Of a DNA stretch of 64,000 nt, positions 446-52,989 are shown one piece after another (within the stretch, counting starts at the first letter, position 1; every line of letters begins with the position of its first letter). A program made the translations under genes and the position numbers. Origin of the DNA: Octopus vulgaris (Eukaryota). Below the pieces are notes generated by a model. The model did no database searches, was not told the origin of the DNA, and saw only the letters and a list, made by a program, of their open reading frames with translations. The stretch is taken from NCBI GenBank assembly GCA_951406725.2, contig OX597818.1:75950001-76014000 (forward strand), written 5' to 3'.

Positions 446-526
446 TTTCGACATATGTTTCGAAGACTGCATACTCTTAATTTCGAAGGAATGAAGGTTG
501 CATTATGCCGTCTTCTCATCAGGAAA
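446..526 (-). ncRNA. Mirror-copy hammerhead ribozyme in the left arm of the inverted repeat
   Basis: Reverse complement reads TTTC-CTGATGA-GAAGAC...GTCTTC-GAAA-CATATG-TC-GAAA, with the same core as the right arm. Confidence 0.8.
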
Positions 527-693
527 TACAAGGAACCTCTATCAGCCTCAAGACAAACAAAAGCTTCTTACCGTCTGCCTACATGGTTTCCACAGTGATA
601 ATTTTAAATAAATACTCATTATCACTGTGGAAATCATGTAGGCAGACGGTAAGAAGCTTTTGTTCGTCTTGAGGCTGATAGAAGTTCTTTGTA

Positions 694-774
694 TTTCCTG
701 ATGAGAAGACGGCATAATGCAACCTTCATTCTTTCGAAATTAAGAGTATGCAGTCTTCGAAACATATGTCGAAA
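694..774 (+). ncRNA. Minimal type I hammerhead ribozyme
   Basis: TTTC-CTGATGA(698-704)-GAAGAC...GTCTTC-GAAA(759-762)-CATATG-TC^GAAA. Full core, 6-bp stem II, palindromic stem III, GUC cleavage triplet (cut after 770), stem I TTTC/GAAA. Confidence 0.85.
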
Positions 775-969
775 GTAAAGGAATTTTGTTAAAATCTTCG
801 TTCGACTCCATTCTTTTCATTTATTCATATAAAAAAACACACAAATTTCCACACACGAAAACGGGGTTCGGCCCTTGGCATGTAACTTCAACCGTGTTTT
901 ACTGACGTGAATTTGCTACCCAGGTATCGATTAACCGAATTATCCATACTAGGATAATTCATTCATCTA

Positions 970-1039
<70 letters not shown>

Positions 1040-1041
<2 letters not shown>

Positions 1042-1230
1042 TCATCATCACTATTTAACATTTGTTTTCCATGCTGGCATGGGTTGGGCAGTTTGACAGG
1101 AACTTGCAAGGTGAGAAGACTGCACCAAGCTCTATTGTCTGCTTTGGCATGGTTTCTATAGCTGGATGCCCTTTCCAATGCCAACCACTTTACAGGGTGT
1201 ACTGGGTGCTTTTTACATGTCACCAGCACT
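1040..1230 (-). mobile_element. Short RTE 3'-UTR/tail-derived repeat
   Basis: (CAT)n tail plus TTTCCATGCTGGCATGGGTTGG...GGATGCCCT...CCAACCAC, matching the 3' ends of the RTE copies at 15140 and 47400-47565. Further copies near 9987, 21700, 42720, 48950, 51200 and 54745. Confidence 0.7.
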
Positions 1231-1959
1231 GGTAATTTGCAAAACTACCTCCTCCTCTCTTAATTGGGAGGGGGAGTAGTATTGAGGGAGGTGACTTTGT
1301 GCCAGTTGATGAGAGGTTAAAATATAACAGAGGGATAGAGGTAGGTGTCTTGCTGTAGAGGAGATACCTGGACACCCCAGTTGGAAAAGAAAGGAGAGAA
1401 AGGGAGAAAAAGATAGATAGATGGATAGGAAGATAGATAAATACATAGAGAGAGAGAGAGAGTGAGAGAGAGATGATGATGATGGTGGATATGTGTTGAG
1501 ATATGCCCTTAAAGTACAGTGGGAGGTGAATATAAGTGAAGTGGTACTGGACAGGGTGAGTGGGCAGGAAGGGTAGAGAGGGAAGTATCACAAAAGTGTT
1601 AGGAGAGATTGGGTTGAGATGACTATAGCAAGGGATGCAAATGATGGTGGGGGATATAGGAGTGGCTCAGGGAAGTTATGGTAGATATTTGAAGCCATTG
1701 AGAGTGATAGCAAATAAGAGAAGTATTAATGATGGAGTATAGCAGAGAGGAGAGAGAGCAATGGCAGAAGGCACAGAAAGGACGTGATTCGTGGAAATAG
1801 TTGGCAGGAAGATAATCAGAAATGAAATTCTGCTCTCAGGTGATTAAAGCAGTTGAGTAAAACTATAGATAGATAAATAATGAATTAGAGGATGAGATGT
1901 GGGGGAAATGCTTGATGGGTTAGAGAGAGTGGAGGTGGGGCAAGACCCTACATGTACAA

Positions 1960-3240
1960 ACATTACCAAGCTGGTTTTAGGATATCTTTTCTGCTCTAAT
2001 GGACAGGTCTTCTTGAGCACAGCAAAACCCCAAGCATCTTGGTCCTTTGTCATCTCCCCCATAAGACTCAGTATCTTGAGATTGGCCTTCAATACCGTCA
2101 TGCCTTCATGAGTCTTTCTCTTCCACAAATTCCATCCACTTTAAACAATTAGCATTTCTTTATGCAACTATTCCTCATCCATATGCATCACATGGCCAAA
2201 CTAGCATAGTCTTCTCTCTTGATCACTACATCTGATTCTTTTATGCCTAGCTTTTCCCTCAGCACACCAGCACTTTGTCATACATGAACTTTGTCCATTG
2301 TGCATTTAATTGAGCATACTAGCTTCATTCCTCTTTAGACTTTACACAGCTTCTGCATTTAGGGCCCATGTCTCACTACCATATAGCATTGCTGTTCATA
2401 CACAAGCATTATATAATCTTCCTTTCACTCAGAGAGAGAGAGAGACCTTTTGTTGTCAATAGAGGTAAAAGCTCTCTGATTATAATGCTGCTACACCAGT
2501 CATTGGGGCTGACACCTTCCTGAATAACTTGATTAACTATACAGGTGACCAGACTGTAATCCTACACCACCAGATATTTTAAGCATTTCAGCCGTAATTC
2601 CCAATGGACTAGTGGCTTTCCCTGTCTTCATATCCTCAATTGCCTAATCTATGTTACTGATGTCAACTAGAATAGCTAATCTCTCTGTTGGATTCACATT
2701 GGAGAGACTCCCTTTCTCTCATTCATTCTCTACATTTAATAACCTTTCATAGTAACACTTTCATGCCTCCTTCCTTTCAGAGTCACTAAGTGCAAGCATA
2801 CCATTATCCATCTGTGCACACTTCTCTCCCATAACATCTTGATTCTCTGTGATACAGTCTAGCAATCTGGAACATCACAAGTCTCTGATTTTCATGCTAT
2901 ATGACATTGACAAACTTCTTCCTTTCTGCATCCGCCATTGTTAGATGAATCTGTAGCCTATCTTCCCTCCTAGTTACTTGATACAACTCTTTGTTGCTCC
3001 CCTTTTCTAGTTTTTTTTTTCCAAGTTCATCTCTTTGTCTTTATGACCCTGTCTATCTTACTGTTCCACCACCATATCATCTACAGTTTGGTTGAAACTT
3101 TGCTCCAACTACAGATTTGATGTGCAGCCTTCAGAAGGTGTTCCCATAAGAACTTCCAGTTGGACTCTATGTTATATGTCACTATCACCTCCTCTTTCCC
3201 AACAGATACTTTAATCAGAAGGTCTCTGAATCACTATAGT
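1960..3240 (-). mobile_element. Degraded RTE-clade LINE fragment
   Basis: Minus strand encodes decayed RTE segments (LSLMGEMTKDQDAW; GRLYNACV..AMLYGSETWA; tether region) homologous to the 15140-19535 copy, with many stops and indels. Confidence 0.7.
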
Positions 3241-3474
3241 ATACACACACACATTTTTGTGTGTAAACATATGTAATTATATATGCATATAAAATGCCAA
3301 GGCTGGTTCCTTCAGATGGTCTGTTTTATGATAAATTTCCTTTAACTCTCATCTGATGTTAGTTTTTTTCCTGGCTACTTTGAGTGTAAAGTACAATATT
3401 GATAATTAAGAGAATGAGGAATTTGAACATTCAAATTTTATGTTTATTTACAGTTGGTTTATTCATAATTGTCT

Positions 3475-3925
3475 GACATGTGTTTCGATTGCATTAATTC
3501 TTTTATTCTTTTACTTGTTTCAGTCATTTGACTGCGGCCATGCTGGAGCACCGCCTTTAGTCGAGCAAATCGACCTTAGGACTTATTCTTTGTAAACCTA
3601 GTACTTATTCTATCAGCCTCTTTTGCTGAACTGCTAAGTTACGGGGACATAAACACACCAGCATCAGTTGTCAAGCGATGTTGGGGGGACAAACACACAC
3701 ACACACATATATACACACACATATATACGACGGGCTTCTTTCAGTTTCCGTCTATCACAAGGCTTTGGTCGGCCCGAGGCTATAGTAGAAGACACTTGCC
3801 CAAGGTGCCATGCAGTGGGACTGAACCTGGAACCATGTGGTTGGTAAGCAAGCTACTTACCACACAGCCACTCCTGCACTTATTTATGTGCAACGATTTA
3901 TGCATAATTAGTACAATCCCTTCAG
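3475..3925 (-). ncRNA. Decayed hammerhead motif split by a SINE insertion
   Basis: Minus strand: CTGAAGG-GATTGTA (3925-3912) ... [SINE] ... TGCAATC-GAAA-CACATG-TC (3493-3475). Stem II is 7 bp including one G-U. Core A9 is mutated and stem I is poor. Confidence 0.45.
3505..3876 (-). mobile_element. tRNA-derived CORE-type SINE
   Basis: Minus strand starts AGGAGTGGCTGTGTGGTAAG with a B-box-like GGTTCAGTCCC and CORE-like CCTTGGGCAAGTG, then an internal (CA)n and a GTCAAATGACTGAAACAAGTAAAAGAATA tail. Near-identical copy at 61775-62216. Confidence 0.8.
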
Positions 3926-5334
3926 GCTGTATAAACATGACATTGTTCAAAGAGGAATTATCCTCCATTATTAGTTTGAACTAGTCTTGGTAGCAGTAGT
4001 AGTAAACCATGATGTTCATCGATGAGCTGTTTTTCACAACTCACAACTACCATAATGCATAAATCACTGCATATAAATATGCAACAATATTGAAACACAT
4101 ATCAGACAATTATGAATAAACCAACTGTAAATAAACATGAAGTTTGAATGTGCAAATTCATCATTCTCCTTATTATCAGTATGTATATATCTATAAATAC
4201 ACACACACATTTTTGTGTATGTTTTGCTGTACGTAAACATATGTAATTATATATGCATATATGTTTGTGTATGTGTGTATGTATGTGTGTGTAGGTATGT
4301 ATGTATGTGTGTGTGTGTGTGCATATGCATACATATATATTTATGCACATATTTATATAATGTGTCTATTTTCCTATGAATCTATTTATTCTTTGTATAA
4401 TGGACATAAAAATATTATTTGTGTGATAAATGCAATTCTTTTAATTACTTTATTATATTTTAATTAACTTTATTATATTTGATAAACATCATTGAAGATC
4501 TGCAACAGATTATTATGAAAGACAGTTATAATACTTCCATTGTAAAACCATTGACCTGATATTTGAAATATGTATATAGCTATATTTTGTATAAAAACAG
4601 AACTCCATAACAATTATATACTTAATAAACATTCAGTGATATCAAAATTATGGCTTTTACTTTTCTTTGTATGCAGAAATAAGTCGTTTTCTTTTCTAAG
4701 AATTGTGTAGGCCCAAACTTCTTTTTTGTGCTGGTCACTCTCATCAATAATAAATGTATTGCTATCCATTTTGCTGATTCCATAACAGTAGTTTAGTATG
4801 GGTCTTGGCTGCCTCCTGATTGCTTGCTACCATCCTTGACCCATTACCATTTAAACAGGCCATATTGGGCCCAGATATTCTACTTGTTTTATGTTCAAAC
4901 TGACCAGATCTGACCTTTCACTCCTACCCTTTAGAATGATATTCATTCTAAAGATAAGCAATCATATCATCAAAATCTCAAAGCTACAAGATAAAGCATG
5001 CTTCATTCAAAATGTGTATAAATAAGCATTACATTTGACAGAGTAATATGAATGCTAAAGGTGAAATGGAATATTCTTTCAACTATATTATATGCATGTA
5101 TATAAATGCCACCCTGTGCAGTCCACATACTTGAAGCTGTGCCAGTGTTCCATAATCTGTCTGCTTGTCTCTGCTTATCTCTTTCTTCCCAGTCTCAACA
5201 CCATTCACAATAATTGAATCCTTTTATTATATACTAGCAGAGATACCCGGTGTTGCCCATGTTACATTCAATTGAAGAATTAGACTTTTCTGTTATGAAC
5301 TGGAATATCTATGTTTCGAATTTCATCAAGAAGT

Positions 5335-6939: not shown

Positions 6940-8171
6940 CAGTACTGTGCAAAAGTCTTCAGCCACTTCAAACTATTGTAAATTTCTACTAATTGCCAAC
7001 TTACAAGTGGATGCTTCACATTGTGTTTTTTACAGATGAAACATCTGTCTTGTTGGAGTCATTTCCATACTTAATCATTATATTTTGTAGTTGGGATTCT
7101 AAATGAGAGGGGAAGATGCAAGATGACCACCAAAAGTGGCCGTGCAAATGTTTTCAGCTACCTCACATAAACCAATCAAGATACAGGGTTTTAAAACAGA
7201 AAAATATCACTATTCAAGTTACCGTCAATTTTAACCAACCGTCTTGAACCATCACTTTTTATGTATCCTCAAAGCATCAGACTCTTACCTCTAAACTTCA
7301 CTGTTTCCATCATGTAACATGGTTGTTTCACTTTCTTAGAGGCCTCCTGATAAATTCTCACTTATTAGAAAGCGAAACGTTCCATGACGAAAACAGTGAT
7401 GTTTGGGGGTAAGAGTCTGATGCTTTGGGGATGCATAAAAAATGATGGTTCAAGAAAGTTGGTTAAAATTGAGGTAACTTGAATAGTACCAAATACATCC
7501 AGCTGCTGAAGGGCAATTTGATACCAGACTTGGATGAAGGTGAGATTTTTCAGCATGACAGAGCTCCATGCTGCACATTGCATGCAACACAACAGAGTCT
7601 GGCTGATGAAGGTGTTACCATATTGAAAGATAAGCCAGCTCAGAACCCTGACTTAAATATCATTGAGCAAATGTGGACAGAACTAAAGAGAAGGGTTCAT
7701 CAGAAGAATCCACACAATCTTGAAGAGTTGTGGGAGCTCAGCCACAGAGAATGGCATCTCATACTTGTGAAAATGGTAAAGGATTTGTTTGTATCTCTTC
7801 CCAGGTGCATTGAAGCAATTATTCAAGCTAAGGGAAGCCACACAAAATATTAAAAATATACAGTAACTTCTTGAAATTAACATTATGTAATAAATTTTCA
7901 TTATAGACATTTTTTCTGTTTTAAAATACTGTATCTTGATTGGTTTATGTGAGGTGCCAAAAACTTTTGCACAGCCATTTTTGGTGGTCGTCTTGCATCT
8001 TCCCTTCTCATTATGAACCTCTACTACAAAATATGATTAGGTATGGAAATGACTTCAACAGGGCCAATATTTCATCTGTAAAAAATACAATGTGAAACAT
8101 GCACTTATAAGTTGGCAATTAGTAGAAATTTACAATAGTTTAAAGTAGTGGAAGACTTTTACACAGTACTA
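6940..8171 (+). mobile_element. Tc1-family DNA transposon, internally deleted, with long (~265 bp) IR/DR-type TIRs
   Basis: TIRs ~6940-7205 and ~7910-8171 begin CAGTACTGTGCAAAAGTCTT, with TA at the right end. Transposase C-terminus at 7365-7853 (MLWGCI...FQHDRAPC...PAQNPDLNIIEQMW). Confidence 0.9.
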
Positions 8172-9626: not shown

Positions 9627-10122
9627 CTGGATGGAGAAAAAAAAGGGAAACAAATGAGAGAGAGAAGAGGGTGAGAGAGACATAAATGAGGATTGCAGTT
9701 AACATTTTACTCCAGATATGTTCTAATCTAGTAGACCTATGATCAAAGACATTCCAACCATCATTGTTTAATGTGTACTTCCATCTTTTTAAGACAGAAA
9801 GATTTAGCTGTTATTTCTAGTAAGCTGAGTGACTATTACACTAGAATGGTTTACAGTTGGTTGAGTCAGTAGAATGTTGGTTAAAAAGCTCAATGGTCAA
9901 CAGCTCATATCTCTATCACCAATAATGATACATGGCAATCAATAACTAAGGTAATATAGGTAGAATAGATAGTCATAGTAATAAACATCATCATCATCAT
10001 TTAATGTCTGTTTTCCATGCTGGTATGGGTTGGACGGTTTGACAGGAGCTGCACCAGTCTCCATAGTCTGTTTTGGCTTGGTTTCTATGGTTGGATGCCC
10101 TTTCAAATGCCAACCACTTTAA

Positions 10123-10340
10123 CCCTTTCATTACTGTATTTATTTTGAGATCCTCTTTGTTTCTTTTAATTAATTATATAACAAAGAATTTAGTAAAATA
10201 ACTTAGTTATCATTCAGCTAGTGTTAAGAACATAAATTGTGACTAAGGTTTGGTGGAAGATTTTAATTCAAAGCTTATGAAAACAAGACATTTGAACTAC
10301 AGAGCCAGAGCCGGCATCAACCAGGTTGGTAACGAAAGGG
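10123..10340. mobile_element. piggyBac-like MITE
   Basis: TTAA target duplications at 10119-10122 and 10341-10344; TIRs CCCTTTCATTAC / GTAACGAAAGGG. Inserted into an RTE-tail repeat. Confidence 0.8.
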
Positions 10341-10498
10341 TTAAAGAGTGTACTGGGTACTTTTTACATGGCACCAGCACCCACACCAATGCTTTTAATG
10401 TGGCACCTTAGTTTTAGGATTTCAATTCTGTTGTGATGAGTAGGTCTTCTTGAGTATAGCAGAGTAAAATATAAAGAGCAAGTGCCTTGTTAGCTTAA

Positions 10499-10706
10499 CC
10501 CCTTTTGTTACCATATTTCTATTGAAATACTCAGTTTTGTTCTAATTAATTTTGAAAAAATAATGAAGAACTTAATAAAATAACTGGTGTTTGGAACATA
10601 AATTAACATGAAACTTTGATGGAAGGTTTTGATTTACATCACTTTAAAACAATGAATTTCTATCATAGAATTAGGAGTGGTCTCAGACAGGTTGGTATTT
10701 AAAGGG
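10499..10706. mobile_element. piggyBac-like MITE, diverged copy
   Basis: TTAA-CCCCTTTTGTTACC...GGTATTTAAAGGG-TTAC; interior similar to 10123-10340. Confidence 0.65.
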
Positions 10707-11054
10707 TTACCTCTTTAAATCAGTGGTTTTCAACCATTTTTTTGCCCATAAACCACTTTGATTTTTTATTTTACTCTCTTGGACTTCTATAGTCATTCAA
10801 TATATGAATGTATGTATATATAATAATAATAATAATAATAGAGAATATAATTCCAAAACTTACAGGGAAAAATTCAATTTAATAATTTTAAATCAAATTT
10901 CACAATATATAATATATGTATATAATTTAGAGAAAAACCTCTATTAAACAATTCAATAATGAAAGATGTTATTCACACCATATAGGAAACATATACTATA
11001 AAAACTTTATTCTAAAATTCAATAAAGTACAATAAATGGTAAATAGTAGTAAAA

Positions 11055-11169
11055 AGACTATGCGCGTTTCATGGCTATATTTCCAAATAGATAATAATAA
11101 TCAATTTGATTTAAAATTAAATCGATCTAAAATTAATTCTATTAAAAAATATAGTCATTCATCAGGTCT
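11055..11169 (-). ncRNA. Type I hammerhead ribozyme motif in an AT-rich repeat (TSNAX intron, sense strand)
   Basis: Minus strand: AGAC-CTGATGA-ATGACTATATTT...AAATATAGCCAT-GAAA-CGCGCA-TA^GTCT. Core intact, long stem II, stem I AGAC/GTCT; stem III palindrome has one substitution. Host repeat (~10825-11175) recurs at ~43600-44280. Confidence 0.75.
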
Positions 11170-11182
11170 AAAATAATAAATA

Positions 11183-11219
<37 letters not shown>

Positions 11220-11226
<7 letters not shown>

Positions 11227-12147
11227 AATACAAAATGGGACATGAACGCAAAACATCCGGACAGCTAGGTGATACAAAAATGGGACAACAAAACATCCAG
11301 ATAGACGATACAAAGAAAACAAGGATGGGTCATTCAAAGTTTTCTTTCCTCAGTCAAGCACCAGATTATCCTCGCAATTTCGGCTGATTATACTTGAGAT
11401 TGCTCAAATCTGGCCAGCCCCAAGGAAAAACTAAGCTAAGAGTATTAGATTCCTTGGAAGAAAGCAGCGAATGTATACAAAAACAAGGACGGAAAAAAAA
11501 CGGATGTTACACAATACAATAAAAATAAAAACAGGACATAACAATAGGTGTCTTTCAACTAAGGACAAATTAAATTAAGCTGGTGTGTGTGGAAATGAAG
11601 CCTTACGGCAGGAATAGAAGATTTCACAAATACAGGGAGGAATATCGATGTTGCATGGACAACGGCCAGACCAAGAAAGAAAGAACAGGCTTGGTCGAAT
11701 GCCGGTCATGTGGGATGAGAAAAGAGAGAAGAAGCAGAGGGACAGAAGAATTGAGGAGCGAGAAAAAATGACAGGGACACAGTAAAGTGAAAAGTGGAGG
11801 GAAAGTTAGCAAGAAGAGAAGATAAAGAAATGTGAGAGAGGGGGAATGAAAGAATGAAGAGTGGAATGAACGAACAGGCGTGAAAGGGCTGATAGACAGA
11901 AATAGAGTCGTACAAGATTTAGAAAAATGTATATTTACATATAAGAGACCAAAGTGTATGTACGCCGCTATATATATATATATATATATATACATATACA
12001 AAAAATACAAAATGGGACAAGAACGCAAAACATCCGGACAGCTAGGTGATACAGAAATGGGACAACAAATCATCCAGATAGATGATACAAAGAAAACAAA
12101 GATGGGTCATTCGAAGTTTTCTTTCCTCAGTCAAGCACCAGATTATT
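11220..12147. repeat. Repeat with ~150-bp direct terminal duplication (pLTR-like partial tandem)
   Basis: AAAAAATACAAAATGGGACA...CAGTCAAGCACCAGATTAT at ~11220-11369 and ~12000-12147, each preceded by (TA)n. Confidence 0.6.
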
Positions 12148-12730
12148 TCTTTTCATCTGAAAATATTTACTTTTTTACCGAAAAGACTTATAGTTTTTAA
12201 GTGTGTAGTGTCCACAAAATCGACCAAAATCGATCTAGAAAGGGGAAGATGGGGAAGGGGGTCCTAAAAAAAAAAAAACATTTGCCAAAAAAATTTTCTA
12301 TTGTTAAAACAATGCTCCAGATCATTTCCATGGGCATCGTGAAAAAAAATTTGAAAAACCTCTGTTCAAACAGAGAAATTCCAATTTATATGGGTGAACT
12401 ACTCTGGACATCTGCCCATTTAAAAAAAAATATTTATTGAGTAACTGTAATTGTATTTATATAAACAGTATAAGTTAAATCAAAAGTTTAATAAAATCGA
12501 AAATACTTTGTAAGGGGTTGATTTCATTTAAGCCTAAGGAAACCACAGCAACAACTAATATCAGAGAAGATGCATGGTAAACTTCCAAGTTTTTTTTAAA
12601 GAACAAAAGTTTAAAAAATGCATCTTCTATGCCGCAAAATGCGATAAATGTAAAAGAATGTATTAGATAAGCTAATGAGAATTTTGGCATTTAAGTTGAC
12701 ACGTTTCTAATTATTTATGAATATATAGGT

Positions 12731-12890
12731 ACAGGAGTGGCTGTATGGTAAGAAGCTTGCTTCCCAACCACATGGTTCTGGGTTCAGTTCCAATGCGTGG
12801 CACCTTGGGTTTTCTACTATAGCCTCGGGCCGACCAAAGCCTTGTGAGTGGATTTGGTAGATGGAAACTGAAAGAAGCTCATTGTGTGTG
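12731..12890 (+). mobile_element. CORE-type SINE 5' part
   Basis: AGGAGTGGCTGTATGGTAAG...GGTTCAGTTCC...GGCACCTTGGG, same family as 3505-3876. Confidence 0.75.
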
Positions 12891-13659
12891 TATATGTGTA
12901 TATGTATATATATACACACACACACACATGATATATACACTGCTCTACATCTTAGAGTGTGCTTCTTCGGATTTATGTTTTCTACAAACGATCCTTTTCA
13001 CTTTCTGGCCAGAGTGTTTTACAGAGACCATGTAGTTTATGCTAAATAGCTGACCAGTAGGCCGTACCTGTACATATTTATGGAAACCACGGGTCTCTCA
13101 TAAATATGGAATGATTTGACCTCAGTTTCTCCACTATTTAAACACCATATTTTTAAGAGGTTATGGGCCAAGAGGTTTTCTGGGATCTGATAATATGCCA
13201 TAAAGCTAAACCCTTTATGGATAGGAAGCCTAAGGTAATCCCATAAACCGATGTTCCCCATTTTTAATATATAGCATTGGTTTTTACAATTCTGTAAATA
13301 ATAATGATAGTATTTTATAAGCTAAAGGCTTATAAGCAATCACCTCGCAATGAAGAAAAATAGTCTAATAATGGGGCATGTAAGTCCTTGACAGAAAAAA
13401 AACGTAGGTTTTCCCGTATGCGTGAATGAGAAAAAGAAGAAAATGGAGAAACTGACATTCAAATCAATATAATATGAAATTCTTATCCCTTCAGCCATTT
13501 CCATATCCAATTAATTCAATGTTTACAATTTACAAAATCAAACTAGAAAACTGGACAAAACAGAGAACACAATTGAAAAAAATTAAAAAGAAAAAAGAAG
13601 GAAAAAGACCAAAACAATTCACCACCTTGGGTTGAAGAGTTGGGGGCGCTGGAAAACCT

Positions 13660-15125
13660 CTCTAATGGCTATTGAGACATGCCAGCACGCTTGCAGAGCT
13701 GCCATGGGTGATGGCAAAGCTGATGCACTGGAACTGCCAAGTGCCCTCACGAGCCTCACCAGTTACCTCTGCAAGGTGAGTTGCCAGTGAAGACAGGAAT
13801 CTTGCAGTTAGTGGTCCGACCCCACCAAACGTCTTGAACGCCACAGGATGGAAAATATCGTTGGGCGACAGATCACGGTATTTCAGGATTTTGTTCTGCT
13901 AGGCTGCAGAAGCCGTGGATCTTGTTCTAACCGCAGCATCCAGGATGTGAGAAGAAGCAAGAGTCGCTGTGACCTCTGCTTTGCGACCAGCAGCACAGGG
14001 TGAGGCCGTCCCATCACATCTGGACAATCCAGATGGTTCCAAGATGAAGAGATGTTTGCCTGGGTCAAGCTCCTCTTGAGTATAAGGTTTAACTCCATAT
14101 GATGTGCAAAGCAACCAGCATTCAGGCAGCAAGAAAGGCATGGAGGCCTGAGGAGTCAAAGAGCCTTCCACAACAACAGATCAAACCCGTGCATACATCA
14201 GCTCCCACTCTGAGGGCAATGGAGACATGATGTTCATCCAAGTTGAGTAGGCCACCAACATTAGCCACAGGGATGGCATCAATCCAGTCATCTGAGTATT
14301 TGGTGCTAGCAGACAGTAAAGCGGCACCTTGAAAACTGTTTTGACTGGATGAAGAGGGAGTCGAAGGTGACCTTTGAAATTATGTTGTCCCAAGTTCTCT
14401 GACTCCAACAGTCCTCCACCTTCTCAGGAGCAGACAAGTCCAATTCCCTCCAGTGTTGGAAAGCTTCATCCAACTCCCTGTTGGAACTGGTCAATGTTGG
14501 AGAGGAGAGGATGTTGCTCACCAGAGTAGAGCAGGCATCGGTGGAGGAAAGGAAGCAGGGGAGAGAGAGGGATGAACACTTATAAAGACCAAGACCTCCA
14601 AATCACTTGGGCAATGCAACCTGATCAAGGGATGTTGGAGAGACATTGACTAAGCATTTCAGTCTCTCAAAGATTAGGTTGTCGAAGCATTGGAGGCATG
14701 ATGGGAATCGGTAAGATGAGCTGACTCTGAGTAAATATAGAAGCTTAGGGATTGAGAGGTAATTCCTAAGTAAGGAAAAACCTTGATGGGGTTTGATAGC
14801 TCAATATTTTTCAGTAATTGCTCAAGGGCAGCCACCTTCAACTGAAAGATGGACTCAAAGGCAAGGTGAGTGATTGGAGCACCTACAAAGCACCAAGCCG
14901 ATGGAGGAGGAACTGCAATGGAAGGGAAGGACTCCGCAAAAAGGTCACTAGTTGGTTGATATTGTGAAACCAGAGGTAACATTTGGAGCTGTTTACTTGG
15001 AGACCTCGGCGACCAAGCTACCCAACCATCATGTTTGCAATGGTGAGAATCCTGTCTGAAGGTCCCCCCCCCAAACAAGCATCATCGAGATACCAGACGT
15101 TGAGATCTAGCTCGATGCCCATCAT
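13660..15125 (-). mobile_element. CRE-clade-like non-LTR retrotransposon, 3' half (RT end plus restriction-like endonuclease), degraded
   Basis: LNVWYLDD at the 5' junction; EPSGLSRCDG; HPVAFKTFGGVGP; WQFQCISFAITHGSSASVL (RLE motif and CRE-type C-terminus). Confidence 0.75.
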
Positions 15126-15139
15126 GATCATGATCACCA

Positions 15140-18100
15140 TCGTTTAACTGGGGTCTGGGAAGCCCGAAGGCTGTACCAGGCCAGTCAGATCTGGCGGTGT
15201 TTCTACAGCTGGATGCCCTTCCCAACGCCAACCACTCCGTGAGTGTAGTGGGTGCTTTTTATGTGCCACCGACACAGGTGCCAGACGAGGCTGGCGAACG
15301 GCCACGCTCGGATGGTGTTTTTTACGTGCCACCGGCACGGAGGCCACGCAGGGCTGGCACGGCCACGATCGGATGGTGTTTGTCACGTGCCACCTGCATG
15401 GAGGCCAGTTGATGCGGTGCTGGCTACGGCCACGTTCGGATGGTTCTCTTACGTGCCACCGGCACCACAAACTACAAATTCCATTGATGTGGATCGATTT
15501 TAATTTGATTTGATTCTTCGATTTTGATTTTCACTTGCCTCAACAGGTCTTCACAAGTAGAGTTATGTGTCCCAAGAAGGAAGGTATGCACAGGTGGACT
15601 GACGTCCCAGGTAGGGGCCATGGGTTATGGCCTCACTTGTCCTGCTGGGTCTTCTCGCGCACAGCATACTTCCAAAGGTCTCGGTCTCTGGTCATTTCCT
15701 CGGTGAGACCTAAAGGGCGAAGGTCGTGTTTCACCACCTCATTCCAGGTTTTCCTGGGTCTACCTCTTCCACAGGTTCCCTCAACTGCTAGGGTGTGGCA
15801 CTTTTTCACACAACTATCTTCATCCATTCTTACCACGTGTCCATACCAGCGTAGACGTCTCTCTTGCATACCACAACTGATGCTTCTTAGGTCCAACTTT
15901 TCTCTCAAGGCACTTACACTTCGTTGGGTATGAACACTTGACATTACACATCCATCGGAGCATACTGGCTTCATTTCTTGCGAGCTTACGCATATCCTCA
16001 GCAGTCACGGCCCATGTTTCACTGCCATGTAGCATGGCTGTTCGTACACATGCGTCATACAGTCTGCCTTTTACTCTGAGCGAGAGGCCTTTTGTCACCA
16101 GCAGAGGTAAGAGCTCTCTGAACTTTGCCCAGGCTATTCTTACTCTAGCAGCTACACTTTCAGCACACCCACCCCCACTACTGACTTGATCACCTAGGTA
16201 ACGGAAATTATCAACTATTTCTAGTTTTTCTCCCTGGAATGTGGCGGAGGATGGTCTCTGCGCATTTTCAGTGTTTATTGCACCAGAGCATCTGCCACAT
16301 ACAAAAACTATATTCCTAGTTAACCTTCCTTTGGCATTGCTGCACCTCTTATGTGTCCATAGCTTACACTTGGTGCATCTTATAGAGTTCCTACCTACGC
16401 CTTTTCTACAGATCGAGCAGGGCCATCTACCTGAAGGCGTTTGAGATTTGTCTACCTTCCTACTTATTAGGACTTTGGTTTTAGCTAGATTGACTCTGAG
16501 GCCCTTCGATTCTAATCCTTGCTTCCACACCTGAAACTTCTCCTCGAGTTCTGATAGTAATTCAGCAATTAGAGCAAGGTCATCAGCATAGAGGAGCTCC
16601 CAGGGGCATCCTGTCTTGAATTCCTCCGTTATTGCCTGGAGGACTATGATAAATAGGAGGGGGTGAGGACTGAGCCTTGGTGGACCCCAACCTCCACCCG
16701 GAATTCTTCACTGTACACGTTGCCAACCCTCACCTTACTAACAGCGTCCCTGTACATGGCACGCACAGCTCTCACTAACCATTCATCTATCCCTAGTTTC
16801 CTCATTGACCACCAGATAAGGGAACGGGGGACCCTGTCAAAGGCTTTCTCCAAGTCAACGAAAGCCAGGAACAGAGTTTTATCTTTGGCTAGGTATTTCT
16901 CCTGCAGCTGTCTCACCAGAAATATGGCATCGGTGGTGCTTTTCCCTGGCACGAAACCAAACTGCATCACATCCAGGTTGACTCTCTCTCTCTAATCAGT
17001 TGGGCTATGACTCTTTCCGTAACCTTCATTACCTGATCCAACAGCTTGATACCTCTGTAATTATTTGTATCTAGGGCGTCACCTTTACCTTTGTAGCAGT
17101 TGACTATTATGCTACTACACCACTCATTGGGTATGACTCCTTCGTGTATCACCTGGTTAACTATACGGGTGACTAGGCTATAGCCGACACTGCCAGATAT
17201 TTTGAGCATCTCAGCAGTAATTCCTGATGGGCCTGGGGCTTTCCCTGTCTTCATGCTTCTAATTGCCTTAACTACCATGGAACTGTCAACTCGGATAGCT
17301 GGTCCCTCTATTGGGTCGACATTCGGCAGACTCTCTTTATCCTATTCATTCTCTTTGTTGAGCAACCTTTCATAGTGGCATCTCCAAACCTCTCTCTTTG
17401 CATCCTCATTTAGCGCAAGTGAACCATCATCCATGCGAACACATTTCTCTCCTACCACATCACGGTTCTCTCTCACACACTGTCTTGCAACATAAAACAC
17501 CTCAAGTCTTTGGTCCTCACGGCACAGAACATTGGCAAATTTTTTCTTACCTGCTTCCCCTCTGGCTAAATATACCTGTCTCCTAGCTTCTCTTTTCGCA
17601 GTCTGATACAATTCCCTACTATCGCCATTCCTCCAGTCCTTCCAAGCCTGTCTCTTGTCTCTAATAGCCCTGTCTACAGCATTGTTCCACCACCACGTTA
17701 CCCTGGGACGAGATGGGACTTTGCTCCATCCACAGATCTGGTCAGTGGCACTCAGCAGATTGTCCCGTAGAAACCTCCAGTTGGTTTCCACATTATGTGA
17801 TGCCATATCCCCTTCTATTTAGTCGAAAGCTTCGAGTAGGACTTCTCTAAATCTCCATCCATTTACAGGATCTTTAAGTTTCCAGACCTTTCTCCTCCGA
17901 GCTGGTCTTCTTCTGGGCAGCCATTTGGCCCTGATCCAGAAGTCGCTAACTACTAATCTATGTTGAGGAGTACATTTTGGAAGGAGAAACCCAGCATCCA
18001 CCTACTCCCTCCACAACACTAGTCTCAAAAAGTCTTCATGTGAACGTGACCTGGGTGTTATTGTCGACAGTGATTTCCGTTGGACAAAACACATCGCTAA

Positions 18101-19535: not shown

Positions 19536-20800
19536 TGATGTCATCAATGCCCTGTGCAAACAGAGCAGGCCCGAGTAGGATACCCTGTTGGACTCCTGAG
19601 GCAGAGGTGATGATTTAGTCACTGAAAGAGAGATAGGAAGGCTCTCGATAAGCCTGCCATGCAAGACGGTATAGTTGTGGGACCTTCTCTCTTACTGAGC
19701 TGAGGAGAGTTGAAGACATTCTTAAGGTCAAGTTTGAGGATGACCTTGGGTGACAAGGAGGGCAAGTTGGCATAGTCTCTGGTAGCATGGGCGACAGCTT
19801 CACATTCCAAATTGGTGCCCACTCCTAGCTGGGTGGGGAAAAATATTTCCTCCAATAAGTTAGAGACTGATTATAAGCACACTTTTGCAGTGAGACGGCA
19901 AAGGGTGAAGCCGACCACAATGGGACTTAGGTCTCCATTGGGTTTGGTGAGCCCAAATAATTTTGCACTGGAGAATAGTGGGCAGATATAATGGAAGACG
20001 TTTGCTGAAGAGAACTGGTTCACAAACTGAGTCATATTCCCCAAGAGCTCAAGTCCGGTGTCACCAGCTGATAAAGAGATACCATCCTTGAGATTTTGAG
20101 GCCAAAGGCCATTAATTCCCACACCTGAACCGGCAGGGAAGGATGAAATCACCTTTCTGATGTTATTAGAGGTGAAGACTGTCTCAAGTATTCTAGGGGA
20201 TCGGGCCAGTTTAGTTGATTATCAGGGAGTGCTTCTCTTTCAGACATCTAAGAGACTCAGAGTCACATGGAGCGAGATAGGATAGAGAAGAGAGGAGACA
20301 GACAGCCCCTTTTATGTCAGATTCACTGAATTTGTCATTGACTGTGCGCTTAAGGTTTATTGGTTGCCTGTCAGTAGGCACCATGCTTGATGTCAAGTTG
20401 AAGTGAGAAGTGGTTGGAGTAGACTCAAATAGCTGAAACTTGAGAGAGGATGTAAGGGAGCCCAATTTCGCATCATGCACATGGAAAGAGATGTCAGGGA
20501 ACAGAAACAGTTTCTGCCAGTTGGATGCATTGTTGGATAAACATACATTTTCTAACAAGCTGTAGAGTGCGCGGGCAAAGCTATTCTGAGCTCCCTTAGG
20601 GATCCGGTTAATGAGCTTCGATTTAGATAAAACCTGGAGGGCTGCAGCAAAGACCTCAGTAGAGAACTGGTTGTCGGAGTGTGAGGTGTCTCCACGGAGT
20701 GTGTCGGAGCTGAAGTGGCACTGACTGCAGGTCCAGTATGGAAGACTTTTGGTTTGAGCCTTGGTGATGCAGACAACTCCTGTGGTAATTTTGGTGGCAC
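19536..20800 (-). mobile_element. CRE-clade-like non-LTR retrotransposon, 5' half (RT domains 0-4)
   Basis: SFPAGSGVGINGLWPQ, LTKPNGDLSPIVVG, QLGVGT, ILKLDLKNVFNS, GVQQG..LGPALF; continues across the RTE insertion into WYLDD at ~15100. Confidence 0.75.
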
Positions 20801-22020: not shown

Positions 22021-22054
22021 AAAAATAACATTCAGAATTTAACGAGGATGCCAC

Positions 22055-36770: not shown

Positions 36771-37399
36771 TAATTGATTAATATCAATTTCTACCCTCAT
36801 TATTTAATTTCTATATATATCAGTGTATATATATTTCATGCTTCTTACAGCATTAGGAGTTTTTAACTCTTACTTCTTTCAATATAGATGCTTTACAATC
36901 TGTGACAATTAAATTTTTTGTTTATGTTATTATATTGTGCCTAGTTGTTTATATTAATATATATATATATAAATTAACAGAATGAGATAAAAATCCAAGG
37001 CAGTGAAAGGTTTCAGAACATTTATAAATAGAATGTCTTACAGCTGTTTCCGGGATATTTTAACTATTTTAAACTATAGTCTGTCCATAGCACTTTCTCA
37101 GCATTACCTGACACTTTTGGGTCTTCTTGACACCATTACCTCTCATAACCTATATAGTATATATATAATGATTGCTTCATCTTGATAGCTGTCCTATCAA
37201 CACACACACTACACCCCATCACACAGCACAATCACTCCGTTGATGGGCCCTCAAATGACTTTTAAGACCAACTGCTGACAGGGTTTAACACACAAGTGAC
37301 ATATTATTCATGTTTCTTCTATATCTTTGTCCTTTGGAATCTGATTCTGAAGGAATGTTTTTGTGAACTAGCATGTCTTTTAAGTTCAGATATTGTCTT

Positions 37400-43529: not shown

Positions 43530-43603
<74 letters not shown>

Positions 43604-43812
43604 TAATAATATTAGGGAGTATAACTCCAAACTTACAGGGAAAAATTCAATTTAGTATTAAATCAAATTTCTCAATATAAATATATAATATATAATATAC
43701 ATAAATTAGAGAAAAACCACTATAAACCATATCATAAAGAAAAAATAAAATATATTATAAAACATATAACTAGATCACAAAATGTACAAAAAATGAATAA
43801 ACAATATATAGT

Positions 43813-44099
43813 AAACAATTGCAGCGTGGAAGGTGTTTATAAGCCATTTAAGAAACACACAAAAGCCGTTCGATTCACTTCAACATTTAAGTTTAATTTG
43901 TCAAAATATTTTGTCGCTAAAATCCGTGACCTGTTCACTGACAAAGTCCGTGATGCAGCACGGACTTTGTCAGTGAACAGGTCGCGGATTTTAGCGACGA
44001 AAATATTTTGACAAATTAAACTTAAATGTTGAAGTGAATCGAACGGCTTTTGTGTGTTTCTTAAATGGCTTATAAAAACCTTCCACGCTGCAATTGTTT
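43813..44099. repeat. Near-perfect palindrome (140-bp arms, 6-nt loop)
   Basis: 43813-43952 versus 43959-44099; loop ATGCAG; one indel and two substitutions seen. Confidence 0.95.
43966..44015 (+). ncRNA. Hammerhead-like motif with G3-C8 covariant core
   Basis: TTTGTCA-GTGAACA-G-GTCGC-GGATTTTA-GCGAC-GAAA-ATAT-TT^TGACAAA: 7-bp stem I, 5-bp stem II, palindromic minimal stem III. Confidence 0.55.
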
Positions 44100-44172
44100 T
44101 CGTTTCAGCACACGATCTCAGATCAAATTACTTGCTATGCGAGTACATTTCCGTAATATATAGTAAGTAAAA

Positions 44173-44275
44173 AGACTATGTATGTTTTGTGGTTATAACT
44201 TCAATTTGAATTACAATTAAATTTGAATTTAATTGAAAAACAATTCAATTTAAAAGTAAAGTCACTCCTCAGGTC
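44173..44275 (-). ncRNA. Decayed hammerhead motif (paralog of 11055-11169)
   Basis: Minus strand GAC-CTGAGGA-GTGAC...AACCAC-AAAA-CATACA-TA-GTC; G12 is mutated. Confidence 0.5.
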
Positions 44276-44312
44276 AACAATAATAACAATAATAATGAAA
44301 TAAATAATCAAA

Positions 44313-44634
44313 TAGAATTAAACAATATTTCTTAAAGAAATAAAAACATGATTCTTCTTATAGAAGAAACTCCATTAACTAAATTTGAAACTTAAAAAGT
44401 AGGACCGGTTGTCTATAATACATTTATCATGTTAAAAACTTAAGGTAAAAAAATAGAGTAAATAGATAGAAAAATGTATTTTATCTGTGAAGATATATTT
44501 TAGCATTGAGAATAATATTAACAAACTATAGTATATCTTTACTGGAAAAATATAAGTTTCAAATTTAGTTAATGGAGTTTCTTCTATAAGAAGAATCATG
44601 TTTTTATTTCTTTAAGAAATATTGTTTAATTCTA
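44313..44634. repeat. Inverted repeat with 82-bp arms
   Basis: 44313-44394 is the reverse complement of 44553-44634 with no mismatch seen; 158-nt spacer. Confidence 0.9.
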
Positions 44635-47565: not shown

Positions 47566-47650
47566 TATATATATATATATACATATTGGTAAAACGGTAA
47601 GATAACAAAAGAAAGAAAGAGACCTCAATATTATGTAAATAGAGGAAATT

Positions 47651-48439
47651 TATCTATACAATAATATGTTACATTACTCGATAGTCAAGATAAAACTCTG
47701 AGTTTCAGATGCCGAAGTGGAAATCCACAACACCATCTTCGGTTATCTGGCTATTTGAAAACGCTATGAAAAAATACCGTTATATAAAGGGAAATTACTG
47801 TGTTATAACTCTGCTTGCCTGCGTACTTATACATCGCTCGCATTTTTCGTCATAAAAATTATATAACAATACATAAAAAATATATAAAAAATATATAAAA
47901 ATATATAATATCTTCTTGGGACATAACATAGAAAGCATGTTCTATCTGTTTTCTTTAGGGGACCAAAAATGTAACAGAAATTTAGTCACATGTGGGCATG
48001 ATCCGAAAAGTTCTGTCCTTGTGTTTAGACATGTAGTAGGGTCTAAGCTGCTTTTCCAGATAAGCCATCTCTCCATGTCACATAGACCGCACCTTCCGCT
48101 GCCGTTTGTATAGGGCTTACATCTGGCCAAAATCTTCCAATGTATGTTATAATTGACACCTTTATCTCTTAAAGACCAAATATGATTAGATAATTGTGTC
48201 GCTTTTCTTTTGTTCCAGTGCCTAAAGCTCAAAGTGTGGTTATTGAACCTGGCCTTGAAGTTACCCTCTGTAAGGCCCACGTATTTCTTCGTCGAAACGG
48301 TGTCTTTAGTGGTTATAGAGTTTACGGTAGCTTCATATATGATAGTCTTGGAGATGGTGTTGTGGATTTCCACTTAGGCAGCTGAAACTCAGAGTTTTAT
48401 CTTGATTATCGAGTATTGTAACATATTATTGTATAGATA
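47651..48439 (-). mobile_element. 5'-truncated Penelope-like element: GIY-YIG endonuclease with inverted pLTR segment
   Basis: KTIIYEATV...KKYVGLTEGNFKARFNNHTLSF...LSNHIWSL...RCGLCDMER...LNTRTELFGSCPH. 47651-47738 is inverted at 48352-48439. Confidence 0.9.
47688..47748 (-). ncRNA. Atypical hammerhead motif in the Penelope pLTR
   Basis: Minus strand AGATAA-CCGAAGA-TGGTGTTG...CGGCATCT-GAAA-CTCAGAG-TT^TTATCT: 6-bp stem I, U4C core change, U-U at the base of stem II, GUU triplet. Confidence 0.55.
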
Positions 48440-50045: not shown

Positions 50046-50117
50046 GGTTCTATGGTGTAATGGTTATCACTCTGGACTTTGAATACAATGATCTGAGTTC
50101 AAGTTTTGGTAGAACTT
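50046..50117 (+). pseudogene. tRNA-Gln(TTG) pseudogene
   Basis: GGTTCTATGGTGTAATGGTTATCACTCTGGACTTTGAATACAATGATCTGAGTTCAAGTTTTGGTAGAACT is colinear with metazoan tRNA-Gln but has stem-breaking substitutions; T-run follows. Confidence 0.8.
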
Positions 50118-50430: not shown

Positions 50431-51458
50431 ACTCTTGATTATATAGCTTCATGATTTTGATGAAGTGATTGTTTATTTTTGAATGACATTGTAGGGTAGG
50501 TGTGAGAGGCTGAATCTGGTGAGTTTGAACATAGAACAGAGCAGAACATTTGGGCCTGAGGTGGGTGGTTTAAATGATAGTGCATACTATATATTTACAC
50601 TTAAAACATTCATCAGCCTTTAAAATGTGGCAGGTATCTTTGCTGTACCTTGTTTATTGTCACATTTAGTTCTATTAATTTGTGTCATCAGACAGGAATG
50701 ATGGATGCTTCACATATTCCAGATGTATATGACAGTGTCCCAGGAATGTTTCTTTTAAAACTACTAATACTCAGGGGTTACTGCTCCCTACAGGAATACT
50801 GTGGTTATTAAGAATGTATGGGAGAGTGAGAGAAGGAAAGTGGGTTATATTCACTCCATTCTCACATACACTCTTGCAAGCTTTACTCATCCACCCACAC
50901 TCCCTGTTTTTTTGGTTCTATTCACTTTTACTTACTTTGTACCTTCAGGGTCCACCAAACATCATCACTATTTTTTATCTTTCCCTGCTCCCAGCTGATC
51001 CCTCTCCATTCTCTCTTCTAAAATGTGAGTAGCCACGTGGTCCCTCTACAGCAAGAAATCTGTTCTGATCTGCCCACTTCTCTCATACTTTACCCCTTTA
51101 TCTCCTCACATAAAACCACCCAGCCTCAGGGTTCATAGTCTTGCAAGCCACACGGTGGTCTTAATAGTACTAGTTGCATCAAAAAAGCAGCCAAAACTCA
51201 TTCTAAAGTGGTTGGCATTAGGAAGGGCATGTGACCAAAGAGACCATGTCAAAAAAAACCATGCCAAAATAGACACTGGAGCATAATGCATTCCTCAGAT
51301 CCATTAGATCCTGTCAAAACATTCAATTTTTACCAGCATGGAGAATGGATGTTAAAAGATAATATGGTGATGATGATGACGAGGAGGATGATGACAATGA
51401 CATTACTGCCTCTGCCACTGCCATCACTGCTGCTGCCAGCGATAAGAGTGGTGATGCT

Positions 51459-51489
<31 letters not shown>

Positions 51490-52333
51490 ATAACAATGAT
51501 GATGATCACGACAGTGAAGATTAGGCTTACTCCTTAATTCCCTGATATCTCAATTGAGATTCTCAGCTGCAGTTTCTTACTTGAAGAAATCTGGCAGAGA
51601 CCAGTATCAGTGAATGAAAACTGAGCCTAGCGCATGACTGGTATTTTATTTTATTGACACCAGAAAAAACAAAAAAGGTCCAGCCATCACCTCTGCATGA
51701 GTATGGCTTGGTAACACATACCATGCCTTCACTAGAACAAGTATAATTGATCTTTGATTCTCGTAGCCTTTGAACCAGAATATCCAGGATGTGACAAGTG
51801 GCAGGGGTGGGTGGGTGTGAGATGGTTGTGCTAGTACTTGGCTGGTGCTCATTTTCAGCTGAATAGACTGAAGTAGAATTAAAGGAAGTGCCATAAACAA
51901 GGACATAAAGCACTGTCTGGTCTAGAAATTGAACCCATGACATTATGATCATGAGCCAAACACCCTAACCATTTCTCCATATGCCTTCAGCCACCAGAAT
52001 GATGAAAGGATTTGAACTCTGAACATAGGCAGTGTGGAACAAAATATCACATGATGCTGTAATAATTCTACCATTCCACTGCCTTGATATTTAGTCTCCA
52101 TAAGGCAGAGAGCTGGCAGAATTAGCACACAAGGCAAAATGCATAGTGGTATTTCATCCATCTTTATATTCTGAGTTCAAAGTCTGCTGAGGTCAACTTG
52201 TCTTTCACCCCTCAGGAGTTGATAAAATAAGTACCAGTTGAGTACTGGGGTGAGGGTCAATGTAATTGACCTACACCCTCCCCCCAAAATTGTGGATAGG
52301 AAGCAAACTTCTTACCACACTACCACACCTGTG

Positions 52334-52382
<49 letters not shown>

Positions 52383-52468
52383 AATGTAGGATAAAAGTTT
52401 TTCAAAAAAAAATTTTATCAATGGCCAGCATATTAAAAAATACCTTTAAAGGTTAAATTTATAAATAA

Positions 52469-52582
52469 CTTATAAAATAAGGGCGAAAGAAAAATTCTAA
52501 TGCCCTTATAATGGTTATTGACAATTTGTCTATTTTCGGCATATTTGGCATTAGAATTTTTCTTTTGCCCTTATTTTATAAG
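52469..52582. repeat. Inverted repeat (36-bp arms) between (TA)n tracts
   Basis: CTTATAAAATAAGGGCGAAAGAAAAATTCTAATGCC mirrored at 52547-52582. Confidence 0.8.
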
Positions 52583-52583
52583 G

Positions 52584-52624
<41 letters not shown>

Positions 52625-52693
52625 GTGTGTGTGTATGCCTAAGAATCCATAAGTTAGGTAAAAATGCACTTGTATATCTTTCAGTAGAGTGGG

Positions 52694-52989
52694 TATATTA
52701 ATTGAAATGTACAGTATTATATGTCAATTACAGCCAATCTTACTAATCGTTTTCACCCTAGGGGTTCAGTGGAGTGTTAGGTAACAGTCCAATTATGTAA
52801 CCCTGTGCTCTTCAGAGAAGGGAATTATGGAATGAAATATGGTATTTCATTCCATAACTGCCATCTCTGAAAAGTGCAGGGTTACACAATCTGATTATTA
52901 TCTAACATTCTATTGAATCCCTAGTGCAAAACCAATTGGTATGATCAGCCATAATAGATATATAATACTGTACACTTCAAATTAATATA
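52694..52989. repeat. Old diverged palindrome (~145-bp arms) with decayed hammerhead motifs in both arms
   Basis: Centre GAAATA-TGG-TATTTC at 52834-52848. Minus 52818-52738: TCT-CTGAAGA-GCACAGGGTT...GAAA-ACGATTAG-TA-AGA. Plus 52864-52944: TCT-CTGAAAA-GTGCAGGG...GTGC-AAAA-CCAATTGG-TA-TGA. Confidence 0.75.

What the first reader, a model, noticed from the sequence alone, without database searches (positions are those of the whole stretch)
446..52944. Recurrent architecture: hammerhead motifs from several repeat families, mostly inside fold-back repeats
Seen: hammerhead or hammerhead-like motifs at 446-526/694-774, 3475-3925, 11055-11169, 43966-44015, 44173-44275, 47688-47748 and 52738-52944, plus a half-site at 37035-37050. 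All have type I topology and a tiny, near-palindromic stem III (CATATG, CACATG, CGCGCA, ATAT, CTCAGAG, CCAATTGG, CAGCTG). Four loci are inverted duplications, and one is attached to a GIY-YIG ORF. Established: Penelope-like elements and retrozymes use such motifs. Inference: this genome holds many short non-autonomous ribozyme-bearing retroelements whose integration leaves hairpins, seeding introns and UTRs with dsRNA and latent self-cleavage sites.
Basis: partly seen in the sequence, partly recalled or inferred. Interest (0 to 1): 0.75.

Follow-up and report, generated by a model that had tools for sequence, protein, structure and literature searches.

The report
Penelope retrotransposon ends with variant hammerheads
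These self-cutting-RNA motifs are real, and most are the leftover tail ends of a known kind of jumping gene that inserts as back-to-back pairs, which is predicted to lock them shut; the unusual points are one large family with two paired core letters swapped and many short copies that likely record the very start of the element's RNA.

Summary
Observation confirmed; interpretation half right. The eight motif sites belong to seven repeat families plus one subfamily. Five families (A-E) run upstream into GIY-YIG frames, and four (A-D) into reverse transcriptase, of Penelope-like elements (Hydra-type and Neptune/Nematis-like). So they are mostly cut-down ends of autonomous elements, not retrozymes; no site is a tandem array. 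The fold-backs are the published head-to-head insertion pattern: 26 head-to-head versus 0 tail-to-tail pairs in family A; one long and one short end in 33 of 35 family-D pairs. In four fold-backs 80-100% of the motif is predicted to pair with its antisense arm, and private mutations hit cores as often as flanks, so latent cleavage sites are not supported. Two extras: family D (1,793 exact copies) has a G3-C8 core swap covarying with a sister family; and 43 of 64 sampled D arms start at one point, 21 of 30 with an extra G, as expected from copying capped RNA. Neither was found in the papers searched, but a key paper was unavailable. The scan already noted the architecture, the swap and the long/short rule elsewhere in this genome.

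The parts
372..602 (-). Family B arm 1 (long 3' end), canonical hammerhead core 450-522
   Evidence: 97% to L019 1501-1731
597..831 (+). Family B arm 2 (3' end 17 nt shorter), canonical hammerhead core 698-770
   Evidence: 96% to L019 1480-1714; family continues upstream into RT and GIY-YIG frame in L399
3287..4041 (-). Family G long arm; hammerhead with A9G change, split by an unrelated short repeat at about 3500-3880
   Evidence: no coding frame found for the family
4052..4182 (+). Family G short arm, 5'-truncated inside stem II (GAAA half only)
10912..11185 (-). Family C single 5'-truncated copy; hammerhead 11055-11169 with one stem III mismatch; sense strand of a host intron
   Evidence: family continues into RT and GIY-YIG in L401, L402
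9627..22889 (-). Intron of a translin-family (TRAX-like) host gene, GT-AG, between two Translin-domain exons
   Evidence: inferred from sequence, no transcript seen
36960..37062 (-). Family F arm, 5'-truncated inside stem II (the half-site at 37035-37050); family core is CCGAUGA (U4C)
37072..37167 (+). Family F second arm: only the 3' tail segment, not complementary to the first arm
43591..44551 (-). Older C-related element (68-75% to family C copies), hammerhead 44173-44276 with G12A; interrupted by the family D pair
43813..43957 (-). Family D short-end arm; hammerhead damaged (one base lost at GAAA, stem II mismatch)
43952..44162 (+). Family D long-end arm; hammerhead 43966-44015 with G3-C8 swapped core GUGAACA (43973-43979), extra G before stem II, U17; 12-bp direct repeat at 43803-43814 and 44155-44166 flanks the pair
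47576..48356 (-). Family A (Hydra-type) long-end arm: C-terminal GIY-YIG fragment (frame 47942-48373), 3' UTR, hammerhead 47688-47748 with U4C core, U17 and a 2-nt deletion against the family
   Evidence: 97% to L041
48351..48442 (+). Family A short-end arm, starts inside the core (5' core half missing)
52695..52855 (-). Family E arm 1, core CUGAAGA intact, G12A
52843..52988 (+). Family E arm 2, G8A and G12A; family links upstream to a Hydra-type endonuclease fragment in L131, L145, L148

Best explanation
The motifs are hammerheads in the 3' terminal repeats of several Penelope-like retrotransposon families, left as shortened copies, and the fold-backs likely arise when both ends of the cut DNA prime reverse transcription on the element's RNA from two fixed start points and the two copies join head to head. 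Shown: family membership, coding links for A-E, head-to-head orientation, two fixed 3' ends with one of each per pair, insertion in TA-rich DNA. Inferred: the two-primer mechanism (supported by published in vitro work on another Penelope element); that family D's short copies run from an internal start site to the capped 5' end of an RNA begun at the repeat's own promoter; that the ribozyme is kept intact only in the source elements. Predicted: copies in fold-backs do not cleave, because the motif pairs with its antisense arm.
For: Family A: 717-aa frame with RWK, DKT and CxCx5C, the Hydra diagnostics of PMC8557442; 2,910 exact motif matches; 2.58-kb tandem units; among the first 100 listed, adjacent pairs within 4 kb are 26 head-to-head, 8 same-strand, 0 tail-to-tail, 0.4 expected. 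B and C run into RT plus GIY-YIG; E into GIY-YIG in 3 of 30 loci; D into a 1,025-aa RT-GIY-YIG frame. D, position-ordered sample: 41 of 76 matches have an inverted partner upstream, 0 of 76 downstream; 33 of 35 pairs have one long and one short end, 2 unclassified. A: 5' ends spread from -1551 to +1 in 30 loci, 22 of 30 with an inverted partner. Published: inverted 5'-truncated copy and one-sided tail (PMC8557442, PMC3846280); two RT start sites and extension of both strands (PMC11167929); dual minimal hammerheads 100-700 bp apart on opposite strands (PMC4209133). Folding: 80-100% of motif bases pair outside the motif for B, D, A, E. Rare (<= 2 copies) non-CpG changes hit core and non-core equally (C 0.021 vs 0.024, p = 1.0; E 0.027 vs 0.037, p = 0.51), while all changes together spare the core in E (0.027 vs 0.080, p = 0.0004) but not significantly in C (p = 0.47).
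Against: F and G showed no linked coding frame in 25 loci each and 3 extended loci each, so they could be non-autonomous. B lacks CxCx5C in the one long copy examined. G's motif is not buried by its fold-back (11% outside pairing). Genome pattern alone cannot tell two-primer copying from the antisense self-priming model of PMC3846280. The D start point also reads as a 3' splice site. No RNA-level evidence of cleavage or start site was obtained. Loci found by similarity search favour young, close copies.
Confidence: 0.85

Rival explanations
1. The sites are non-autonomous retrozyme-type elements that spread as self-cleaved circular RNAs.
For: Type I hammerheads with palindromic stem III; F and G not linked to a frame; earlier scan notes report retrozyme arrays elsewhere in this genome (not checked by me); D has a defined short form.
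Against: No tandem array at any site; A-E link to coding frames; copy ends do not fall at the cleavage site; one same-strand pair among B's 58 matches.
Confidence: 0.1
2. The fold-backs come from self-priming on an antisense template or from later DNA-level inversion, and D's short copies from splicing or deletion, not from two primed cDNAs on capped RNA.
For: PMC3846280 proposes antisense self-priming for head-to-head repeats and recombination or deletion for solo repeats; the D boundary follows a CTAAC-pyrimidine-AG stretch like a 3' splice site.
Against: One long plus one short end in 33 of 35 pairs; no shared upstream exon beyond GAG in short arms, and G at -1 in 21 of 30 against 15% background, p = 2e-11, where long copies have C or T. 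About half of those G could also come from the partner arm as 1-nt microhomology.
Confidence: 0.25
3. The inserted hairpins and ribozymes are kept for a host function (editing substrates, intron cleavage).
For: One motif is sense in a host intron; long duplexes would suit ADAR (established knowledge).
Against: Neutral decay of cores in inserted copies; only 14 of 33 E copies keep both core halves; no Pfam-detectable host exon among 140 of 179 candidate frames scanned from 24000-60000, so host context of the five fold-backs is unknown.
Confidence: 0.07

Closest known systems
Hydra-clade Penelope-like elements, including Hydra-1_Obim (Craig et al. 2021, PMC8557442; seen: passages, section 11, supplement part 2 of 59 and one supplement search)
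   Same: Under 3 kb, single frame, RWK, DKT, CxCx5C, C-terminal GIY-YIG, TA targets, inverted 5'-truncated partner, one-sided tail; listed hammerheads often have U17 and an ACTC-N-GAGT stem III as in family A.
   Different: Family A's hammerhead differs in sequence from the listed Hydra-1_oBim motif and has U4C, which none of the listed Hydra motifs has; B lacks CxCx5C in the copy examined; tails here range from 17 to about 135 nt.
Minimal type I hammerheads of metazoan PLEs (Cervera and de la Pena 2014, PMC4209133; seen: abstract, parts 1-2 of 4)
   Same: Long stem II, short stem I, palindromic stem III, extra base between positions 9 and 10.1, solo copies and opposite-strand pairs 100-700 bp apart from truncated elements.
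   Different: They report the U3-A8 core covariation; family D has G3-C8, sister family H has C at position 9, A and F have U4C.
Poseidon of Anolis carolinensis (Frangieh et al. 2024, PMC11167929; seen: main text section 3 in full)
   Same: Two internal RT start sites bounding the tail, both strands extended, AT-rich targets; the engineered C3G/G8C pair partly restores cleavage.
   Different: G3-C8 is engineered there and natural here; that paper does not deal with inverted pairs or solo repeats.
Adineta vaga Penelope elements (Arkhipova et al. 2013, PMC3846280; seen: passages)
   Same: Head-to-head inverted repeats, tail on one of them, initiator-like motif in the repeat, solo repeats, asparagine-rich inserts between RT and endonuclease (as in families B and C).
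   Different: Explains inversions by antisense self-priming and solo repeats by recombination or deletion; family D points to capped sense RNA.
Animal non-LTR retrozymes (PMC7229834, passages; bioRxiv 10.64898/2026.07.22.740005, part 1 of 5)
   Same: Type I hammerhead, PLE connection, small size.
   Different: Defined by tandem 150-450 bp non-coding monomers and circular RNA; no site in this window is a tandem array.

Membership tests
EN+ Penelope-like elements | Single frame with RT and GIY-YIG endonuclease upstream of the hammerhead-bearing repeat | tested here: met
   A (717 aa), D (1,025 aa, PF01541 above cut-off), B and C (RT and EN by tblastn to A); E endonuclease part only; F and G none found
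EN+ Penelope-like elements | 5' truncation, partial tandems, inverted 5'-adjacent copy | tested here: met
   head-to-head only; 2.58-kb tandems in A; tandem repeats in H
EN+ Penelope-like elements | Tail at one end only (two 3' ends) | tested here: met
   D 33 of 35 pairs; A ends at about +98 and +155 or beyond; B 1714 and 1731; not resolved for E and C
Hydra clade (family A) | RWK, DKT, CxCx5C linker, under 3 kb, TA targets | tested here: met
Hydra clade (families B, C, E) | Same protein motifs | tested here: inconclusive
   28-48% identity to A over the matched parts; C has CxCx5C; B copy lacks it and its N-terminus; no tree built
Neptune or Nematis clade (families D, H) | Cx2-5CxxC linker before the endonuclease; placement on a reference tree | tested here: inconclusive
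   Linker present, DKS in place of DKG; no reference sequences, so no clade assignment
Minimal type I hammerhead | Core C3-U4-G5-A6-N7-G8-A9 ... G12-A13-A14-A15.1 ... U16.1-H17 with three stems | tested here: met
   Canonical in majority of B, C, E, G; variants in A, F (U4C) and D (G3-C8); D versus H: 4 of 12 pairs change on both sides, 39 of 500 shuffles reach this with only two sequences
Minimal type I hammerhead | Self-cleavage at N17 | not testable with these tools
   Only contigs were served, which cannot show ends
Non-LTR retrozymes | Tandem non-coding monomers, each with a hammerhead | tested here: not met
   No such array in the window; coding links for A-E
Non-LTR retrozymes | Circular monomer RNA | not testable with these tools
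   No raw RNA reads available

The most novel reading that the evidence does not exclude
Family D records the whole Penelope copying reaction in DNA: the enzyme copies one capped RNA, begun at the repeat's own promoter, from two fixed internal start points using both cut DNA ends, reads through the cap (extra G), and so mass-produces 150-210 bp solo repeats that behave as a short mobile element; and that RNA carries a working natural G3-C8 hammerhead that standard searches miss.
Probability: 0.4. Interest if true: 0.6.

Novelty: new variant of a known kind. Interest (0 to 1): 0.4.

Why it matters
The architecture itself is textbook for Penelope-like elements, so the window adds members, not a system. 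Two features could matter to specialists. A natural G3-C8 core in a family with at least 1,793 exact copies, beside U4C and C9 cores in other large families, means hammerhead censuses built on CUGANGA undercount, and gives natural variants for the open question of what these ribozymes do. The fixed start with an extra G and the long/short end rule give a genomic test between two models for the inverted repeats (capped sense RNA with two primers versus antisense self-priming).

Tried and rejected
Rfam found no hammerhead family at these motifs; not evidence against them, since the long stem II and short stem I differ from the canonical layout. Run search: no RNA holder listed on record; only contigs were served, so starts, ends, cleavage and circles could not be examined. 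Splicing of the translin-family intron was not checked on transcripts. In one search one run (X3, RNA by guess, another organism label) shows 8 A>G and 3 T>C places at 3-10% that are under 0.6% in the other three runs; without DNA of the same organism this is not counted as editing. Naiad membership for family A was considered and rejected: the endonuclease is C-terminal and Hydra motifs are present. The first inverted-partner count was inflated by TA repeats and was redone. The first pair count on the D/H alignment used a mis-registered structure and was redone. No host exon was found by Pfam among 140 of 179 candidate frames from 24000-60000. Lunse et al. 2017, Arkhipova et al. 2017 and Przybilski and Hammann 2007 were not held; the first could already list G3-C8, U4C or C9 variants. 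Supplements of PMC4209133 and PMC3088659, and 58 of 59 parts of the PMC8557442 supplement, were not read and may list such variants or these families.
Full report
Setting. The window is G000:C5:75950001-76014000 of a 2.8-Gb animal genome. A protein labelled Octopus vulgaris by its source matches G000 loci at 99-100%, so this is an octopus genome. The window holds two Translin-domain exons, a caspase frame, LINE and Tc1 fragments.

Observation. Every motif is present as described. A strict minimal type I descriptor finds two (450-522 -, 698-770 +) against none in 20 local shuffles; looser descriptors give 3 against 0.05, 4 against 0.4, and, with one core mismatch, 9 against 3.8. The damaged motifs are therefore only credible through their families. 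Genome searches gave families for all sites. Majority cores: B CUGAUGA, C CUGAUGA, E and G CUGAAGA, A CCGAAGA, F CCGAUGA, D GUGAACA (part of the family C rows was cut from the output, its counts come).

What they are. Family A: the 47942-48373 frame is the end of a 717-aa RT-GIY-YIG frame with RWK, DKT and CxCx5C, the Hydra-clade marks of Craig et al. 2021 (PMC8557442, section 11). Their supplement lists Hydra-1_Obim from another octopus and Hydra hammerheads with the same stem III and U17 layout. Families B and C continue upstream into RT and endonuclease similar to A; E into an endonuclease fragment in 3 of 30 loci. Family D lies about 1 kb behind a 1,025-aa frame with a Cx3CxxC linker and GIY-YIG, Neptune- or Nematis-like, not placed on a tree. 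F and G gave no linked frame in 25 loci each plus 3 extended loci each. No site is a tandem array, so the retrozyme definition (PMC7229834; bioRxiv 10.64898/2026.07.22.740005) is not met here.

The fold-backs. Exact motif counts in the genome: A 2,910, D 1,793, B 58, reversed controls 0. In the first 100 A matches, neighbours within 4 kb are head-to-head 26 times, same-strand 8 times, never tail-to-tail; 0.4 neighbours are expected by chance. In 76 position-ordered D matches from 68 loci, 41 have an inverted partner upstream and none downstream. Each family examined has two 3' ends: A about +98 and +155 or beyond, D about +129 and +186, B 17 nt apart, F and G about +110 and +245 or +200. In 33 of 35 D pairs one arm is long and one short; 2 are unclassified. 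The window's B, G, D, A and F loci follow this; E was not resolved. The inverted copy and one-sided tail are published (PMC8557442; PMC3846280), as are opposite-strand hammerhead pairs (PMC4209133). PMC11167929 shows in vitro that a Penelope protein extends both strands and starts at two internal RNA sites bounding the tail. My inference is that each cut end primes one of the two sites and the cDNAs join at their truncated ends.

Are they latent cleavage sites? Folding whole loci puts 80-100% of motif bases in the antisense duplex for B, D, A and E, but only 11-13% for G and the two C sites. Each strand of a pair carries one sense motif, whereas these minimal ribozymes were reported inactive as monomers (PMC4209133) or active only with protein (PMC11167929). 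Rare mutations strike cores as often as flanks in C and E, whereas shared variation spares the core in E only: selection in source elements, neutral decay after insertion. One motif (11055-11169) is sense in the 9627-22889 intron of the translin-family gene and has a stem III mismatch. Host context of the other sites is unknown.

Variant cores. D reads GUGAACA: G3 and C8 have traded places. All 39 close copies have it (overlapping loci counted), as do most copies behind frames of 80-89% identity: of 9 such rows, 5 have GUGAACA, 3 a single change and 1 no alignable motif. Sister family H, 55% identical in protein, has C3-G8 (and C at 9). Between D and H, 4 of 12 pairs change on both sides, including 3-8; with two sequences this is reached by 39 of 500 shuffles, so it is supportive, not significant. 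The engineered double change partly rescues a Penelope hammerhead (PMC11167929). Natural U3-A8 and a viroid U4C are in print (PMC3088659; PMC4209133). A natural G3-C8 was not found in searches (PMC3884650 mentions only a laboratory variant), but Lunse et al. 2017 was not held. All 100 listed A matches are U4C although the pattern allowed U.

Defined short form of D. Of 64 arms in the ordered sample that keep the leader, 21 continue upstream and 43 start at one point 19-21 nt before the core; 30 begin AG-ATG, and 21 of these have G in front where long copies have C or T (background G 15%, p = 2e-11). About half of those G could also be read from the partner arm. The site reads TCAGAT or TTAGAT, like an initiator (consensus recalled; Penelope repeats hold an internal promoter, PMC2377424). 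An extra G from copying the cap is recalled knowledge of reverse transcriptases. So short copies likely run from an internal start to the capped end of an RNA begun in the same repeat. The site also resembles a 3' splice acceptor, but no shared upstream exon appears. Two searches and scan look-ups did not show this reading.

Relation to earlier scan notes. The architecture, the G3-C8 swap and the long/short rule were noted before on other DNA of this genome; I had seen the swap and the two end classes before reading them, and counted the rule after. They are not counted as support.

Verdict. Real and above chance; mostly known Penelope biology in an octopus, with variant cores and a likely cap signature as the parts worth following. 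Interest 0.4.

Noticed in passing
window 53049-53124: Tiny head-to-head remnant of the 3' end of family H (sister of D), 100% identical over 49 and 34 nt, without the hammerhead.
   Followed up: partly
L236:4632-4690 and 29 other loci (L231-L260): Young family H, frames up to 1,312 aa in 4.6-kb tandems, hammerhead core CUGAUGC (C at position 9) with U17 in essentially all copies listed.
   Followed up: partly
window 44313-44394 and 44553-44634: 82-nt inverted repeat, 100% complementary, at the 5' end of an otherwise old C-related element; looks like a more recent local inversion.
   Followed up: no
window 11222-11370 and 12000-12140: Direct repeat of about 140 nt with CTGAGGA on the minus strand (11353, 12130) and no downstream hammerhead partner seen; next to the family C copy.
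   Followed up: no
window 43950-44165, run X3: A>G and T>C differences at 11 places (3-10%) in one run only; possible RNA editing of family D, no matched DNA.
   Followed up: no
window 6941-8170: Tc1-type DNA transposon with terminal inverted repeats and a DDE_3 fragment; holds an internal 94-nt inverted repeat at 7225-7472.
   Followed up: no
window 22056-22325, 26342-26537, 58705-58973, 61644-62364: Other inverted repeats without a hammerhead hit in my descriptors; 22056-22325 is G+C-rich with 95% arms, MITE-like.
   Followed up: partly
window 59889-60827 (-): 312-aa open frame with a complete caspase domain in one stretch.
   Followed up: no
window 50046-50117 (+): tRNA match above the Rfam gathering score.
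   Followed up: no
L019, L084, L399: Families B and C carry asparagine-rich stretches between RT and endonuclease, as reported for rotifer Penelope elements.
   Followed up: no
L403 (about 4.7 kb before the window): Another family E motif just upstream of the window.
   Followed up: no
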